Origin: the human T2T-CHM13v2.0 reference genome, Homo sapiens
Strand: one strand, 5' to 3'
DNA length: 64,000 nt
Assembly (NCBI RefSeq): GCF_009914755.1
Contig: NC_060926.1
Below are positions 43,203-49,292 of the stretch, piece after piece. The notes beneath the pieces were generated by a model that was given only the letters and a program-made list of their open reading frames with translations, was not told the origin of the DNA and searched no databases. Position 1 is the first letter of the stretch; each line of letters begins with the position of its first letter. The position numbers were made by a program, and so were the translations under genes.

Positions 43203-46200
43203 AAGGCCTTATATGTGCTGCACTAAGAGCTTCACAGATACATACTCACCTGCCTGGTCTCACCCAGCATGACTTATCACGGTTTCATCAACCTAGATTT
43301 ACCCATCTGCCTTATTAACATCCTGGCCATAATCATCCGGTATTACTTTCCAAGCCTTATGCACCAGGTTGAACACTTGGTAACCTGGACTTACCCTACT
43401 GGCATTAGCCTCATGTCCTTACCAACCTGATTACCCAACTAACAGGCTTAACCAGTTGGCCTTCACAATTATACTCAACCTTCAGGTCTTGCTTACCTGT
43501 CCTAGCCCCACTGGCCTTTACCTAGTGTCATTAGTCACTGGATATTCCCCTGGCCTTACTCTTCTGGTCTTCACCTATTGGCCTTTCCCACCTGGTCTTA
43601 CCCACCTGGCCTTACTCACTAGGACTTAACTACTTGTCCTTTATTAAACTTACAGGCTTACTTACCTGCCGTATTCACCTTCGCAGCCTCAACTAGCATG
43701 ACTTAATCTGCTGGCCTCATATCCATCTGAGTTTAATCATCTAGCTTTATTCAGCTATCCTTCACCTTCTAGCTTTCCTCTCACTGTCTCACCCACCCAA
43801 TATTAGCCTCCTGTCATTATTTAGCTGGCGTAGTGACTAGGTTTTAATGCTCCTGGCTGTTTCTCCTTGATTGACTGGCCTGGTGTTACTCAAATAGTTT
43901 TTTATTCAGCTGGATTTACACACCTGGTTTAACAACCTTTCCTTACTCAGTAGACTTATTAACCTCACTGCCTCAATCACCTTATTTTCCTGGTGTTGTT
44001 AGACAAGCTTAATCCATGTGGCCCTATATCAAACTCCTGGCCTTACTGACACAGGCTTCATTGCCTAACCTAAAAGTCTCGGCCTTACCCACCTCGCCAT
44101 AATTTCCCGCCGTCATTCACCTATTCTCACCCACTTGGCTAACTTTGTTGGTCTTAATCTGCCATCAAGATGCACCTGATCTTACCCACGAGCCCTTACT
44201 CCTCTGTCCTTATACCCTGGGCTTAACGCCCTCTCTGGTGAGACCCCAGGAGCCTCCCTCACTGGGCTTAACCTTATGGGCTTTAACCTCATAGCCTTAA
44301 CAAATTGGATTAACTGCCTGGTTTTCCCACCTAGTCTTACCAAACGTGGCCTTCACACTTGGTGTATACAGCTGTCCTTAACCCCTGGTTAACCATATTA
44401 TTAACCTTATAGCCATACTCACCTGCCCTCTTCAGCTGCCTGGCCCCAGCCAGCATGACTTAATCTGCTGGCTTTATACCCTACTGGTGTTTACCACCTG
44501 GTTTATTCAGCTGGCCTTTACATCCTTACCTTCCCCACAGTCTTACCCACCTAACAGTTTCCTCTAGTCATCATATGACTGGCTTGGCAACTTGCTCTTA
44601 ACCCTACCAGGTGTTTCCCCTGTCGATTTCACAGACTGGGTTACTGAAATAGTCCTTAATTGAGCTGTATTTAGACACCTGGTTTTAACAACCAGGCCGA
44701 ACTCAGCCAACCTTAATCTGATTGCGTTCATCACCTTATTTTATCCTCATTGTATGACGAACTTGACGTTATCCATCTGGCCTTATTAACTTCCTGGCCC
44801 TACTTGCCCAGTGTTCATGACTTTGCCTAAAAATCCTGGCCTTACCCGCCTGGCCATAACTTCGTGCCATTGTCCACGTGTTCTTACTCACCTGGTTTTA
44901 ATTCGCTGGCCTCAATCTCCTGTCAAGACCCAGCTGATTTTACTCACTAAGGTTTACCCACGTGGCTTATGAAGCTCCTGCCATTGCTCCCCTGCCCTTT
45001 CTTTCTGGCCTTATCCACATCATTTTATGGCCCTGGTCAGACCCGATTAGACTTCCCTACCTGGCCTAACCCTATGGGTCTTAACCTCAAGGCCTTGATA
45101 ACCTGGATTAGCTACCTAGTTTTCCCACCTAGTCTTACTGATTATACATGATGAACATGGCCTCCACCTTGGTTTTTGCAACTGTCCCTAGCCTTCTGGT
45201 TTTATCTAACAGGAATTAAGCCCCTGGATTTATCTCTCTAGGTTTTCTCCTTTGGTTTTATCATCAACATTCCCTTTTTCCCTAGTTTTACCACCAACTC
45301 CTTGCTCCAGCTGCAGCCACAGTGCCCTATTTAGACATTTTACATTGCCCACCTGGCTTTAAACTCATTACCTTCCCAATCTAGATGACCAACTTAGCTT
45401 AGTAAGCTGGCATTCGCACCTGACCTTAACCTTTCATTCTAAGTCATGTGGCCTTAACATCCTGACCCTGTTTACCTAGTATTAACCTCTATTAACCTCT
45501 TCACATTACCCAGGTGGAGTTAGCCACCTAGCTCTATTTAGGAAGGCCTTAACTTACTGGCCTAAGCCACCCAGACTATTCAATCACTTGGCTTCCTAAA
45601 TTGGTTGTAACTTCACGTTTTTGCCAACTTACATTTACCCACCTGCCTTATGAAACTCTTGGCCTTACTCATCTAGTATAAATCTTCTGTCCTTAACCTT
45701 CTAGTTGTATCTACGAAGGCTTAACCCATTGGATTTACCTCCCTAGGTTCACTCCCCTAAACTTATCACCCTTTACTTATTCCTGAGATTCCTGGACATA
45801 GACACCTTGCATTACTCATCTGGATTTACCCACCTGGCCTTAACCTCATGGCCTTACCATCCAGGATTACCAACTTAGCTTACCTCCCTGGCCTTCCTGC
45901 CTGGCCTTAATGTTCCATTCTAACTTACATGGCCTTAACCTTCTGGCCTAATGTGCCTAAACTCTTTGCTTTACCCACTTAAACTCAGCCACCTAGTTGT
46001 ATTCAGGGAGATCTTAACTTGCTGGTCTTACCCATCTGGCTTTTTAAATAGTTTGGCTTCCTGACCCGGCCTTAACCTCATGGTTTTGCCAACTTAGATT
46101 TACCCACCTGCCTTATGAACCTCCTGGCCTTACTCATTCAATATTAATCCCCTGGCCTTGTGAATCTGACTTACCCACTTGGCCTTACCCTACGGGCCTT

Positions 46201-49200
46201 AACATCATGTCCTTACCAACCAGAATTACCCAGCTGATTTTACCTACCCAGCCTTACCCTGTTGTCCTTCACAATTAGTCTCAATTTTCTTGTCTTATTT
46301 AGCTGTCCCACCCCTACTGGCCTTAACCTAGTGTCATTATCAGCTTTCCCAGCCCCTGGCTTTACTTTCCTGGCCTTTACCTATTGGCCTTCCCACATGA
46401 CTGTATTTTCTTGTCCTTACCCACTTGGCCTTGTGCAAGTACTGGCTTCACCCAATAGGCCTTCTGCAACCAACATTATTAACCCGACAGCCATACTCAC
46501 CTGCTGTATTCACCTGCCTGGCCTCAGCTGGCATAACATGATTTAATCTGTTGGGCTCATACCCATCTGGTGTTGACTACCTCGTTTTATTCAGCAGACC
46601 TTCACTTCCTCACCTTCCCCGCACTGTCTTGCCCACCTAGTATTAGTTTCCTTTCATCATTTAGCTGGCTTGGCAACTTGGCATTTAACCTACTGGGAAT
46701 GTCTCCATTGATTTACTGGCCCGGGGCTACCCAAATAGCCTTTTATTCAGCTAAATATAAATGCGTGGTTTTAACAACCTGGCCTTACTCACCAGATGTT
46801 ATTAACCTCATTTTCTTAATTACTTTACCCTCATGGCATTATTAAACAAACTTCATTCATGTGGCTCTATGAAATTCCTGCCCTTACTGACCTAAGCTTA
46901 ATTTCTTGTCCTTACTAAATGTCTTGGCCTTATCTACCTGACATAACTTCTCGCCATTATCCTCTTGTTCTTACCCAGCTGGCTTTAATTTCCTGGCCTC
47001 AATCTGCTGTCAAAACCTACCAGCTCTTGCCCATGGTGCCTTACTGCCCTTTCTCTACTCCCTGGCCTTACCCATCACATTTTATTTATTTATTTTTTGA
47101 GGAGGAGTCTCCCTCTGTCACCAGGCTGGAGTGCAGTGGCGCAGTCTCGGCTCACTGCAACCTCCAACTCCCTGGTTTAAGCAATTCTCCTGCCTCAGCC
47201 TCCCGAGGGGCTGGGATTACAGGCCTGTGCCACCACGCCTAGCTAATTTTTGCATTTTTAGTAGAGACGAGGTTTCACCATGTTGGCCAGGCTGGTCTTG
47301 AACTTCTGTCCTCAAGTGATCCACCTGCCTCGGCCTCCCAAAGTTCTGGGATTACAGTCGTGAGCCACTGCACCTGGCCAACCCACCTCATTTTATCACC
47401 CTTGACAGAACCCATTAGCTTTCCACACCTAGCCTAAACCTATGGTCCTTAACCTCATGGTCTCAACAACCTGGATTATCTACCTAGTTTTCCCACCTAG
47501 TCTTACCCATTGTGGGTTTCATGCTAAGTTTATACAACTGTCCTTAACCTTCTAGTTTTATTTACCAGGGCTTAGCCCCTGGTCTTATTTTCCTAAACTT
47601 ACCTCCCTAGGTTTCCTCCCCTGGACGTATTTCCCTGCCCTTATTACCTGGATTTCCCACCGCACCCTAACTTAACACACCTTACATTTCCCATTTGGAC
47701 TTACCCATCCAGCCTTCACCTCGTGGCTTCAATAGCTTACCAACCTGGCCTTTTCATCTAGCCTTATCCTTTCATTCTTAGTCACATGGCCTCAACCTCC
47801 TAGCCTAATCTGCCTGGCATTAACCTCTCAGCCTTACCCAGTTGGAGTTACCACCTAGCTGTATTCAGTGGCCTTAACTTACTGGCTTTACACACCTGGC
47901 TTTTTCAATGGCTTGGCTTCCTGACCCGGTGTTAACCTCATGGTTTTGCCAAAATAAATTTACCCAGCTGCCTATTAACCTCCTGACCTTACTCATTCAG
48001 CATTATTCTGCTGGCCTTATGCACCTGGCTTACCCACCTGGCCTTACTCTGCTGGCCTTAACCTTATGTCCTTACCAACCCGAATCACCCGACTGATTTT
48101 ATCTACTCAGCCTTACCCATTTGGCCTTCACGATTAGTCCCAGTTTCTGGTCTTACTCACATCTCTCAACCCTACTGGCCTTAACCTAGTGGAATTATCC
48201 TCAGTCCTGACCCTTGGCCTTACTTTCCCGGCCCTCACCTATTGGCATTTCCCTATGGCCTTAAACACTAGGCCTTCCCCACCCAACCTTATTAACCTTA
48301 GGGCCATACTCACCAGCCATGTTCACCTGCCTGGTCTCAGACAGCATGATTTAATCTGCTGGCTTCATGCCCAACTGGTGTCAACTCCCTAGTTTTATTC
48401 AGCTCGACTTAACCTCCTCACCTTCCCTTCACTGTCTTACCCACCTAGTATTAGCCACCTGTCATTATTTGGCTGGCTTGCTGACTTGGCCTTAACTCTC
48501 CTGCATGTTTCTGCTATTAATTTACCAGCCTGGTGTTACCCAAATAGTCTTTTATTCAGCTGGATTTATACACCTGGTTTTAACAACCTGGCCACACTCA
48601 GCCAAAGTTACTAACCTTCTTACCTTCATCACCTTATCTTGTCCACATGGTATTAGGAGCCTGGCATTATCCGTCTGACCTTATTAACCTCCTGGCCTTA
48701 CTCACCCAGACTTAATTGCATGGCCTAAAAGTCCTGGTCTTACACTCCTGGCCATAAGTTCCCACCCACCATTATCCACCGGTCCTTATCCACCTGGCTT
48801 TCATTTGCTGGCCTCAATCTCTGGTCATGACCCACCTAATCTTGCCCCCCCAGAGGCCTTTGTCCCCTTCCTTTACTCCCTGGCCTTGCCCCACTCTTGT
48901 TACCCCTCTGGCCAGACGCATTAATCTTCGTCACCAGACCTAACCCTATGGGCCTTCACCTCATGGCCTCAACAACCTGCATTAGCAACCATGTTTTCCC
49001 ACCTGGTCTTACCGATCATGCATGACCCAAATGGCCTTCACATTGGTTTACACAACTGTCCTTAATCTTCTGGTTTTATCTACCAGGGCTTAACCCCTGG
49101 ATTCACCTCTCTAACGTTTACTCCCCTAACCTAATCTGCCTGCCCTTATTCCCTATATTTAACTCCCACCCCCGGACTTAGAAACTTTGCATTAGCCATC

Positions 49201-49292
49201 TGGACTTACCCATATTGCCTTAACCTCATGGGTTTACTAACCTGGTGACCAACATAGCTTACCAACCTGGCCATCCCACCTGGCCTTTACCT
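43203..49292. repeat. ~6 kb degenerate 13-14 bp monomer array (~GGCCTTACCCACCT) with higher-order repeats
   Basis: Near 43580: GGCCTTTCCCACCT GGTCTTACCCACCT GGCCTTACTCACTA GGACTTAACTACTT; near 45822: GGATTTACCCACCT GGCCTTAACCTCAT GGCCTTACCATCCA; homologous long blocks start near 43650, 44410, 46490 and 48300. Confidence 0.9.
47080..47379 (-). mobile_element. AluS inserted in the array
   Basis: Full dimer; flanked by ACCCATCACATTTTAT / ACCCACCTCATTTTAT. Confidence 0.93.

What the first reader, a model, noticed from the sequence alone, without database searches (positions are those of the whole stretch)
43203..49292. 6-kb strand-asymmetric 14-mer array with higher-order structure, matching no repeat family I recognise
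Seen: roughly 400 (length/14 estimate) degenerate 13-14 bp monomers near GGCCTTACCCACCT; C/T-rich and CpG-poor on +, G-rich on -. Homologous blocks beginning CATACTCACCTG...CAGCATGACTTAATCTGCTGG recur near 43650, 44410, 46490 and 48300 (partial at 43241). A second marker, ATTTACCCACCTGCCTTAT...GGCCTTACTCAT, recurs near 43297, 45633, 46096 and 47957, implying a ~1.5 kb unit with deletions and an internal duplication. A 14-bp period is not codon-compatible and all frames are broken. AluS and L1PA7/8-like insertions show the array is older than they are. Inference: an old locus-specific macrorepeat, possibly a multivalent RNA domain like the repeat modules of XIST, NORAD or FIRRE.
Basis: partly seen in the sequence, partly recalled or inferred. 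Interest (0 to 1): 0.85.

Follow-up and report, generated by a model that had tools for sequence, protein, structure and literature searches.

The report
Old decayed 14-bp repeat array, multi-copy
This is a real but very old and decayed tandem array of a 14-base unit that exists at several places in the human genome because the segment carrying it was copied repeatedly, and nothing found here suggests it does more than drift and occasionally break.

Summary
Window 43,203-49,292 is about 414 degenerate copies of CCTGGCCTTACCCA, 67% identical to that consensus. All copies lie on the + strand and are organised into ~1.55 kb higher-order units that are 74-77% alike.

The interpretation mostly fails. 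The array is not locus-specific. The same assembly holds related arrays on chr3 (~20 kb), chr1 (~13 kb), chr4 (~4.3 kb, minus strand), chr13 (~0.4 kb), chr2:175.2 Mb (~0.5 kb), and a 0.7 kb inverted remnant on chr3.

- Window 8.9-49.3 kb is collinear with chr3 at 90-91% identity, so it is an old segmental duplication. chr1 is a third copy.
- The chr4, chr13 and chr2:175 Mb loci are far older paralogues, with flanks 60-75% identical.
- An Alu inside the array is shared with one chr3 super-unit.

I found no constraint. The array has diverged faster than its flanks (K2P 0.135-0.160 against 0.093-0.108). On well-polarised lineages, consensus-matching sites change as often as other sites (OR 0.98).

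No gene is annotated in the window, and Rfam gives only Alu-derived hits. Dfam, RNA-seq and other mammals could not be consulted.

Best reading: a neutral, ancient, expanded minisatellite carried in duplicated segments, and prone to rearrangement.

The parts
43203..49292 (+). Degenerate 14-bp array, about 414 monomers of consensus CCTGGCCTTACCCA. The array-like signal runs from 43,281 to 49,292.
43277..44390 (+). Higher-order unit 1 (marker 2 at 43,297, marker 1 at 43,695).
   Evidence: Self-BLAST. Markers.
44398..45695 (+). Higher-order unit 2 (marker 1 at 44,452). Its end, 45,345-45,694, is duplicated at 45,826-46,159.
46078..47938 (+). Higher-order unit 3, about 1.56 kb once the Alu is removed.
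47938..49300 (+). Higher-order unit 4, the last unit of the array.
43655..49300 (+). One ~5.6 kb 'super-unit'. It is the counterpart of chr3 super-unit 3b (84% over 5.7 kb). chr3 carries about three such units at a ~6.4 kb period.
47085..47380 (-). Alu insertion inside the array. One chr3 super-unit (3b) has it at the same site. chr1 and chr3 super-unit 3a lack it, and there the flanks overlap by 15-22 bp, as for a target-site duplication.
42591..43240 (+). Unique 'head' flank directly upstream of the array. It is shared with chr1 (84%), chr3 (87-93%) and chr4 (67%), always in the same orientation relative to the array.
8921..43241 (+). Upstream flank collinear with chr3:162.821-162.851 Mb, 90-91% identical outside gaps. 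This is the body of an old segmental duplication that ends in the array.
49293..54545 (-). L1 in antisense orientation, with its T-run next to the array end. The 5' part (52,758-54,533) is inverted, and an Alu sits at 51,977-52,300. This L1 is absent at the chr3 array end.
   Evidence: L1 identity and orientation rest on my recall of L1 sequence and on the T-run.

Best explanation
The array is the decayed remnant of a 14-bp minisatellite.

INFERRED MECHANISM OF GROWTH. It grew by slippage and unequal exchange in three tiers:
- monomers, now 67% identical to their consensus;
- ~1.55 kb higher-order units, K2P 0.28-0.32 between units;
- ~6 kb super-units, K2P about 0.14-0.16.

It is not a stand-alone locus. 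It sits inside a low-copy duplicated segment.

OLD COPIES (shown). An old round of duplication left paralogues at chr13q34, chr4q24, chr2:175.2 Mb and chr3q26, with flanks 60-75% identical. In three of these sites the array is still only 0.4-0.7 kb long (counting the chr3 remnant as the third).

EXPANSION AND REARRANGEMENT (inferred from shown structure). The chr3 and chr4 arrays expanded. The chr3 locus was broken inside the array, most simply by a ~70 kb inversion.

YOUNGER COPIES (shown). Later, chr3-type sequence of at least 40 kb was copied to chr2q32 (this window) and chr1q42. Flank K2P is about 0.10. At primate rates recalled from memory this is some tens of millions of years.

SINCE THE LAST DUPLICATION (shown). 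The array has drifted at or above the rate of its flanks, with no protection of the monomer consensus. It therefore most likely has no sequence-specific function.

LIKELY EFFECT (inferred). Its main biological effect is probably mechanical: it is a substrate for unequal exchange and breakage. The paralogous arrays differ in length (6, 13 and 20 kb), and several rearrangement junctions lie in it.
For: - Period, monomer count and higher-order structure.
- Paralogous arrays: a 993-bp array query finds chr3 and chr1 at 87%.
- A 23-mer consensus-dimer pattern gives 28 of 29 genome hits at chr1, chr2, chr3:162.85 Mb, chr4 and chr13, with 1 control hit.
- A trimer pattern gives 57 of 65 hits in seven array sites, with 4 control hits.
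- Collinear flanks: window 8.9-43.2 kb against chr3; chr1 against chr3; chr4 against the window at 61-75%; chr13 against chr4 on both sides over 10 kb at 60-72%; chr4 upstream against chr2:175.19-175.20 Mb, the window, chr3, chr1 and chr13; chr2:175.2 Mb array.
- The Alu shared by chr2 and chr3 super-unit 3b makes these two sister copies.
- K2P: flanks 0.093-0.108, array 0.135-0.160.
- Constraint test on the polarised sister lineages chr2 + chr3b: consensus-matching sites changed at 225 of 3,523 (0.064), other sites at 67 of 1,419 (0.047). Base-stratified OR is 0.98, p = 0.96. For chr2 alone the counts are 105 of 1,754 against 35 of 711, OR 0.82, p = 0.46.
- The best-kept monomer positions are T and A, which also mutate least in this data set: 0.13-0.16 against about 0.28 for C and G.
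- Rearrangement junctions: a 0.7 kb array remnant plus 'tail' lies inverted at chr3:162.7975-162.8023 Mb, with no head beside it. Homology among chr1, chr2 and chr3 stops at the array on the distal side. chr2 lacks 7.4 kb of chr3's proximal array.
Against: - Pooling all four paralogues, base-stratified rates are lower at consensus-matching sites: OR 0.73, p = 0.0045. On strictly aligned columns OR is 0.65, the lowest of 14 phases. I attribute this to unknown polarity on the chr1 and chr3a branches, where the signal is concentrated (OR 0.48-0.59). Weak constraint or biased gene conversion in those copies is not excluded.
- An array of this motif persists on the same strand at all seven sites, and 47% of changes at off-consensus sites go toward the consensus. 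Transition bias or conversion could explain this, but I did not separate the two.
- Transcription, chromatin state, population length variation and orthologues in other mammals were not examined.
- Ages rest on substitution rates recalled from memory.
- Duplication (rather than transposition) is inferred from segment size and low copy number, not shown directly.
Confidence: 0.75

Rival explanations
1. The head-array-tail unit is, or derives from, a catalogued or uncatalogued mobile element or named satellite. An internal variable array expanded in some copies, and the loci are insertions rather than segmental duplicates.
For: - All seven sites carry the array in a fixed orientation relative to shared flanks.
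- Old pairwise identities of 60-75% resemble those of ancient repeat families.
- Part of the shared upstream flank at chr2:175.2 Mb is a multi-copy old interspersed repeat, with 733 first-look candidates.
- Hoyt et al. [quoted passage not shown] Their list is in supplements I could not open.
Against: - Only seven sites exist genome-wide.
- Flank queries hit only these loci apart from embedded common repeats.
- Collinear homology reaches at least 25 kb for chr4 against chr13 and chr2, and at least 40 kb for chr2 against chr3. This is far beyond known mammalian elements.
- No flanking terminal-repeat pair was found.
- None of 82 open frames of 60 aa or more in the chr13 copy has a transposon or retroviral Pfam domain.
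Confidence: 0.1
2. The array is a functional multivalent RNA module. A transcript through it would present hundreds of short protein- or snRNP-binding sites.
For: - The array is strongly strand-asymmetric.
- The minus-strand reading carries 47 GGTRAG (5' splice-site-like) motifs in 5.8 kb, against 1.7 expected from the rest of the window. U1-recognition and 5' splice-site motifs are reported to retain RNAs on chromatin or in the nucleus (10.1101/310433 and PMC9074902, abstracts only).
- The plus-strand reading is pyrimidine-rich, with 60 CTTAC.
- The pooled test shows a modest excess of consensus retention.
Against: - No gene is annotated in the window, according to the annotation supplied with the finding.
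- Rfam finds only Alu-derived hits.
- The array diverges faster than its flanks.
- There is no consensus protection on the polarised chr2 and chr3b lineages.
- The motif counts follow automatically from the monomer sequence.
- Array length differs about 50-fold among paralogues.
Confidence: 0.05
3. The array matters at the DNA level. It may be a fragile, recombination-prone tract that seeds rearrangement and duplication breakpoints, or an array of factor-binding sites (25 CAGGTG E-box cores on the minus strand).
For: - The chr3 locus is split inside the array.
- The distal ends of the chr1/chr2/chr3 homology lie in or at the array.
- Array lengths are 6, 13 and 20 kb in copies whose flanks are about 90% identical.
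- The minus strand has 45 two-G-tract quadruplex-type motifs against 22.8 in shuffles.
- Human GC-rich minisatellites stimulate gross rearrangements in yeast (PMC3486850, abstract). Tandem repeats and G-rich sequence are enriched at CNV breakpoints (PMC4090240, abstract).
Against: - There are no three-G-tract quadruplex motifs.
- Only a handful of junctions are involved, and ends of homology inside a repeat can also arise from later unequal exchange or deletion.
- No binding or breakage data were available.
- This reading is compatible with the main explanation rather than opposed to it.
Confidence: 0.1

Closest known systems
Classical strand-asymmetric (G-rich on one strand) human minisatellites such as CEB1, CEB25, MS32
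   Same: Short unit (14 bp) repeated head to tail over kilobases, with purine/pyrimidine strand asymmetry. Growth by slippage and unequal exchange. Association with rearrangement (PMC3486850, abstract).
   Different: - This array is far more decayed (67% identical to its consensus).
- It is interstitial and carries 1.5 kb and 6 kb higher-order tiers.
- It is present as paralogous copies at seven sites.
- Hypervariability was not tested, and there are no three-G tracts.
- The properties of the named loci are recalled, not tested here.
Macrosatellites and higher-order-repeat arrays (DXZ4, D4Z4, alpha-satellite HORs)
   Same: Kilobase-scale repeat units built on a shorter period. Copy number differs between related arrays.
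   Different: - Units here are only 74-77% identical and number about four in this window, so there is no ongoing homogenisation.
- No CTCF-type or coding content was identified.
T2T-era arrays spread by segmental duplication and then expanded locally (WaluSat, 5SRNA_Comp; Hoyt et al. preprint 10.1101/2021.07.12.451456, passages read)
   Same: A short ancestral array or monomer is carried to new chromosomes by segmental duplication and expands at some sites only.
   Different: - Those arrays are young, homogeneous and largely pericentromeric or acrocentric.
- This one is old, euchromatic and decayed.
- I could not see whether it is among that paper's newly annotated interstitial arrays, because the supplements are closed.
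Repeat modules of XIST, FIRRE, NORAD
   Same: Tandem modules that would make a transcript multivalent.
   Different: - No transcript is annotated here.
- No module-level conservation was found.
- The unit is 14 bp rather than tens to hundreds of bases, and no known binding motif of those RNAs was identified.

Membership tests
Minisatellite | Head-to-tail tandem array of a 10-100 bp unit | tested here: met
   14-bp period. 414 monomers by wrap-around alignment, far above shuffles.
Minisatellite | Length hypervariability between individuals | not testable with these tools
   Only one assembly is available. Paralogous arrays differ in length, but that is not allelic variation.
Macrosatellite / higher-order repeat array | Kilobase-scale unit repeated in tandem | tested here: met
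   About 1.55 kb units, four in the window. About 6.4 kb super-units on chr3.
Macrosatellite / higher-order repeat array | High identity between units (ongoing homogenisation) | tested here: not met
   Units are 74-77% identical, K2P 0.28-0.32.
Segmental duplication (usual operational definition, recalled: at least 1 kb and at least 90% identity) | Long collinear non-allelic homology at 90% or more | tested here: met
   Window 8.9-43.2 kb against chr3. Four unique blocks of 2.0-2.3 kb are 90.0-91.4% identical outside gaps. The array itself is 86-88%, below the threshold.
Catalogued human satellite or transposable-element family (Dfam/Repbase) | Match to a library consensus | not testable with these tools
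   No repeat library is on hand. Rfam gives only Alu-derived hits. Monomer strings in 8.4 million papers return one unrelated primer. Warburton 2008 (term search only) lists none of these bands apart from unrelated 1q42.13 arrays.
Transposable element | Many dispersed copies with defined termini, terminal repeats or coding remnants | tested here: not met
   Seven sites only. No terminal-repeat pair. 0 of 82 chr13 frames have a transposon or retroviral domain. Homology spans 25-40 kb or more.
Repeat-module long non-coding RNA (XIST/FIRRE/NORAD-like) | A transcript spanning the repeats | not testable with these tools
   No expression data are available. The annotation supplied with the finding lists no gene in the window.
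Repeat-module long non-coding RNA (XIST/FIRRE/NORAD-like) | Modules or motifs conserved above the neutral rate | tested here: not met
   Array K2P is 0.135-0.160 against 0.093-0.108 for flanks. OR is 0.98 for consensus against non-consensus sites on the chr2 + chr3b lineages. The pooled signal (OR 0.73) is confined to the unpolarised branches.

The most novel reading that the evidence does not exclude
The 14-mer arrays are retained working parts of an unannotated, roughly 100-million-year-old family of non-coding loci (13q34, 4q24, 2q31, 3q26, plus the primate copies at 2q32 and 1q42).

One version: antisense transcripts through them carry a U1-type 5' splice-site motif about every 120 nt and act as chromatin-tethered scaffolds or snRNP sinks.

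Another version: the arrays act in cis as recurrent breakage and duplication hubs that shaped these loci.
Probability: 0.07. Interest if true: 0.7.

Novelty: new member of a known kind. Interest (0 to 1): 0.3.

Why it matters
As it stands, little. The result removes a candidate 'orphan functional macrorepeat' and replaces it with an ordinary history: a minisatellite that expanded, decayed and was carried along by duplications.

Two points have modest value.

1. The result documents a small, apparently uncatalogued family of related arrays. These sit in an old duplicated segment on five chromosomes, with a three-way duplication (3q26, 2q32, 1q42) whose unique flanks are 90-91% identical, just at the usual 90% cut-off, while the array itself is 86-88% and falls below it.

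2. Several rearrangement junctions lie in the array. This makes the family a convenient natural series for studying how decayed tandem arrays seed inversions, deletions and duplication end-points.

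Tried and rejected
- Rfam scan of 40-56 kb at E up to 1: 21 matches, all of Alu-derived types (SRP, mir-1268, mir-3135, mir-619) and none in the 14-mer sequence itself.
- Mobile-element reading: Pfam on 82 frames of the chr13 paralogue gave only three sub-threshold or chance matches (Trefoil, zinc ribbon). 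A search for a second copy of the upstream unit, as an LTR pair, found none at any locus. I listed 112 frames of window 33.0-43.3 kb but did not scan them.
- 'Tail' homologues were looked for in the chr1, window, chr3 main and chr2:175 Mb stretches. None were found.
- A head next to the chr3 remnant array: not found, score within shuffles.
- Specific homology between chr1's distal ~3 kb of array and the chr2 or chr3 units: none, only generic monomer matches.
- The chr4 array has no detectable higher-order repeat of its own: one weak 135-bp pair.
- A genome search with the chr4 array was swamped by an embedded common repeat and gave nothing useful. The same happened with the chr4 distal flank.
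- Literature. The monomer strings found only a primer. A search on ZSWIM2/CALCRL plus repeat terms listed no paper holding either gene name among the 10 rows shown of 653. In Warburton 2008 a term search found none of these loci.
The outer limits of the chr13/chr4/chr2:175 Mb homology and of the chr2/chr3 duplication upstream of window 8.9 kb therefore remain open.
- The PRDM9-motif, CTCF-motif and hypervariable-minisatellite 'core' resemblances that I considered rest on recall only. They did not fit on inspection and were not pursued.

Full report
WHAT IS THERE

Window 43,203-49,292 is a tandem array with a 14-bp period.

- Autocorrelation is 0.401 at lag 14, 0.364 at lag 28 and 0.325 at lag 42. 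Composition alone predicts 0.272, and the maximum in a control stretch is 0.284. The top Fourier peak is at period 14.0.
- Tandem Repeats Finder sees only short patches of period 14 or 28, because the copies are too degenerate.
- I aligned the array without its Alu (5,794 bp) wrap-around to the consensus CCTGGCCTTACCCA. This gives 414 monomers at 67.1% identity, with 141 insertions and 155 deletions. Shuffles give 56-58% identity and three times the indels.
- The best-kept positions are T3, T8, T9 and A10, at 81-89%.
- The motif lies on the + strand only: 57 hits against 2 at up to 3 mismatches in the whole window, 56 of the 57 inside the array.
- GC skew is -0.27 to -0.41 across the array.
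- CpG o/e is 0.19, against 0.23 for the window as a whole, so the array is not specially depleted.
- The longest open frame is 107 aa.

HIGHER-ORDER STRUCTURE

Self-BLAST gives 20 internal pairs. They define units of about 1.55 kb at 43,277-44,390, 44,398-45,695, 46,078-47,938 (with an Alu at 47,085-47,380) and 47,938-49,300. There is also a 350-bp internal duplication, 45,345-45,694 against 45,826-46,159.

Gap-free identity between units is 74-77%, K2P 0.28-0.32.

NOT LOCUS-SPECIFIC

- A 993-bp piece of the array finds chr3:162.853-162.871 Mb and chr1:230.679-230.691 Mb in the same assembly. The best segments are 87% identical, all on the same strand.
- A consensus-dimer pattern gives 29 genome hits against 1 control hit: 13 on chr1, 9 on chr3, 3 in the window, 2 on chr4, 1 on chr13 and 1 elsewhere.
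- A trimer pattern (core at 14-bp spacing) gives 65 hits against 4 control hits. Of these, 57 lie in seven sites: chr1 29, chr3 14, window 7, chr4 4, chr13 1, chr2:175.207 Mb 1, and chr3:162.8018 Mb on the minus strand 1. The other 8 are unrelated short repeats.

Array spans by a sliding wrap-around score:

| Site | Span | Length |
|---|---|---|
| window | 43,281-49,292 | ~6.0 kb |
| chr3 | 162,852,727-162,871,956 | ~19-20 kb |
| chr1 | 230,679,014-230,692,054 | ~13 kb |
| chr4 (minus strand) | 106,804,808-106,809,101 | ~4.3 kb |
| chr13 | 112,867,609-112,868,041 | 0.43 kb |
| chr2 | 175,207,075-175,207,561 | 0.49 kb |
| chr3 (minus strand) | 162,801,563-162,802,270 | 0.7 kb |

The consensus monomer is the same at the four large sites.

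THE YOUNGER LAYER: A THREE-WAY SEGMENTAL DUPLICATION

Window 8,921-43,241 is collinear with chr3:162.821-162.851 Mb. Four unique blocks of 2.0-2.3 kb are 90.0-91.4% identical outside gaps, K2P 0.093-0.108. chr1 shares the same upstream sequence with chr3 at 84-92%.

The array follows directly. Window 43,655-49,300 matches chr3 'super-unit 3b' at 84% over 5.7 kb. The chr3 array holds about three such super-units at a ~6.4 kb period, plus older material. The window array equals a 414-bp proximal piece plus one super-unit.

In a four-way alignment (chr2, chr1, chr3a, chr3b) all pairs are 85.3-87.7% identical, with chr2 and chr3b closest. chr3b carries an insertion at exactly the site of the window's Alu, and the junction sequences match. 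chr1 and chr3a lack it and show a 15-22 bp overlap there, as a target-site duplication would give. The Alu therefore predates the chr2/chr3b split, and chr2 and chr3b are sister copies.

With anthropoid substitution rates recalled from memory (about 1-1.5 x 10^-9 per site per year), a flank K2P of about 0.10 corresponds to roughly 30-50 million years. This figure is inference.

THE OLDER LAYER

- The 650-bp 'head' just upstream of the array (window 42,591-43,240) also matches chr4 next to its array at 67%, K2P 0.38. Weaker collinear homology continues upstream, with window 38.4-40.1 kb at 62-75%.
- chr13 and chr4 are collinear on both sides of their arrays across the whole 10 kb that I hold for chr13, at 60-72%.
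- chr4's upstream 4.4 kb matches chr2:175.192-175.203 Mb (71-75%), the window (28.0-29.3 and 39.3-39.8 kb), chr3, chr1 and chr13, all in the same orientation.
- The chr2:175.2 Mb site has its own 0.5 kb array directly after that flank.
- Flank queries hit only these loci, apart from embedded common repeats.
- No transposon or retroviral domain was found in 82 frames of the chr13 copy, and no terminal-repeat pair was found.

The simplest reading is an old segmental duplication of at least 25 kb. By the K2P values it is of the order of 100 million years old. It already contained a short 14-bp minisatellite, which later expanded on chr4 and on the chr3 lineage.

REARRANGEMENTS AT THE ARRAY

- The sequence downstream of the chr13 and chr4 arrays (the 'tail') is absent after the chr1, chr2 and chr3 arrays.
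- That tail lies inverted at chr3:162.7975-162.8016 Mb, preceded by a 0.7 kb array remnant, with no head beside it. The ancestral chr3 locus was thus split inside the array, most simply by an inversion of about 70 kb.
- Among chr1, chr2 and chr3, homology stops at the array on the distal side. Only Alus match beyond it.
- The window array ends within about 20 bp of the higher-order phase at which the chr3 array ends. It is followed by an antisense L1 (49,293 to about 54,545) that chr3 lacks.
- chr2 lacks 7.4 kb of proximal array that chr3 and chr1 share.

These junctions and the 6, 13 and 20 kb lengths show an unstable tract. The number of junctions is small, and later unequal exchange could also produce some of them.

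IS THE SEQUENCE CONSTRAINED?

Between chr2 and chr3 the array has diverged more than the flanks: K2P 0.135-0.160 against 0.093-0.108.

I then asked whether sites that match the monomer consensus change less often than sites that do not. CpG contexts were excluded.

- Pooled over four paralogues, raw rates are equal: 466 of 2,115 against 190 of 866, Fisher p = 1.
- Stratified by base, the odds ratio is 0.73, p = 0.0045.
- On strictly aligned columns it is 0.65, the lowest of 14 phases.
- This signal is confined to the chr1 and chr3a branches (OR 0.48-0.59). There the direction of change cannot be fixed, and mis-polarised decay would produce exactly this bias.
- On the sister lineages chr2 and chr3b, where two outgroups fix the direction, consensus sites change at 225 of 3,523 and other sites at 67 of 1,419, OR 0.98, p = 0.96. 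For chr2 alone OR is 0.82, p = 0.46.

The best-kept monomer positions are T and A, which are also the slowest-changing bases in these data. I conclude that the copy in this window shows no detectable constraint. Weak constraint or biased conversion in other copies is not excluded.

FUNCTIONAL READINGS

- The annotation supplied with the finding lists no gene or functional element in the window.
- Rfam returns only Alu-derived matches.
- Read on the minus strand, the array has 47 GGTRAG motifs (1.7 expected from the rest of the window), 25 CAGGTG, and 45 two-G-tract quadruplex-type motifs against 22.8 in shuffles. It has no three-G-tract motifs.
- These counts follow from the monomer sequence. 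They would matter only if the array were transcribed or bound, which I could not test.
- U1-type motifs are reported to hold RNAs on chromatin or in the nucleus (10.1101/310433 and PMC9074902, abstracts).
- Minisatellites and tandem repeats are reported at rearrangement breakpoints (PMC3486850 and PMC4090240, abstracts).

KNOWN OR NEW

- No repeat library was available, so membership of a Dfam family is untested.
- The monomer strings occur in no paper of the searched library except as an unrelated primer.
- Warburton et al. 2008 (term search only) lists none of these loci.

In kind, this is an ordinary object: an old minisatellite with higher-order amplification, dispersed by segmental duplication. 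At most it is a new member of a known kind.

VERDICT

Interest is low to moderate.

Noticed in passing
window 8,921-49,300 (and chr3:162.821-162.872 Mb, chr1:230.668-230.692 Mb): At least 40 kb of the window is one copy of a three-way old segmental duplication (2q32, 3q26, 1q42). Its unique flanks are 90-91% identical, just at the usual 90% cut-off, while the array is 86-88%. Its upstream limit lies beyond what I could fetch.
   Followed up: partly
window 11,426-13,804: Relative to chr3, window 11,426-13,411 aligns inverted (88%) and overlaps a forward-aligned block at 13,048-13,804. This looks like a small inversion or inverted duplication inside the duplicated segment, in an Alu-rich stretch.
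   Followed up: no
window 49,293-54,545: Antisense L1 with its T-run against the array end. Its distal 1.8 kb (52,758-54,533) is inverted relative to a full-length chr4 copy, which suggests twin priming. An Alu is inserted at 51,977-52,300. I saw no obvious target-site duplication.
   Followed up: partly
L028 (chr3:162,797,501-162,804,500), minus strand: A 0.7 kb remnant of the 14-mer array followed by sequence homologous to the chr13 and chr4 downstream flank. It is inverted and lies about 49 kb upstream of the main chr3 array, which is evidence for an old ~70 kb inversion with a breakpoint in the array.
   Followed up: yes
L024 (chr13:112,863,001-112,873,000) against chr4:106.790-106.820 Mb and chr2:175.19-175.21 Mb: Non-coding paralogous segments of 10 kb or more at 60-75% identity on chr13, chr4 and chr2, each with a 14-mer array. 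This is an old low-copy duplication family whose extent and age I could not bound.
   Followed up: partly
L027 about 1,614-1,974 (chr2:175,206,614-175,206,974): A ~350-bp old interspersed repeat (733 first-look candidates genome-wide, 68-76% identity) sits just upstream of the short chr2:175 Mb array. The family was not identified.
   Followed up: no
window 40,231-40,488, 41,402-41,686, 47,097-47,378, 52,009-52,297, 54,793-55,070: The Rfam sub-threshold hits to SRP RNA, mir-1268, mir-3135 and mir-619 all fall in Alu elements. They are not independent RNA genes.
   Followed up: no
chr1:230,689,000-230,692,054 (L018): The distal ~3 kb of the chr1 array has the 14-bp period but no specific unit-level homology to the chr2 or chr3 arrays. 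Its origin is unexplained.
   Followed up: partly
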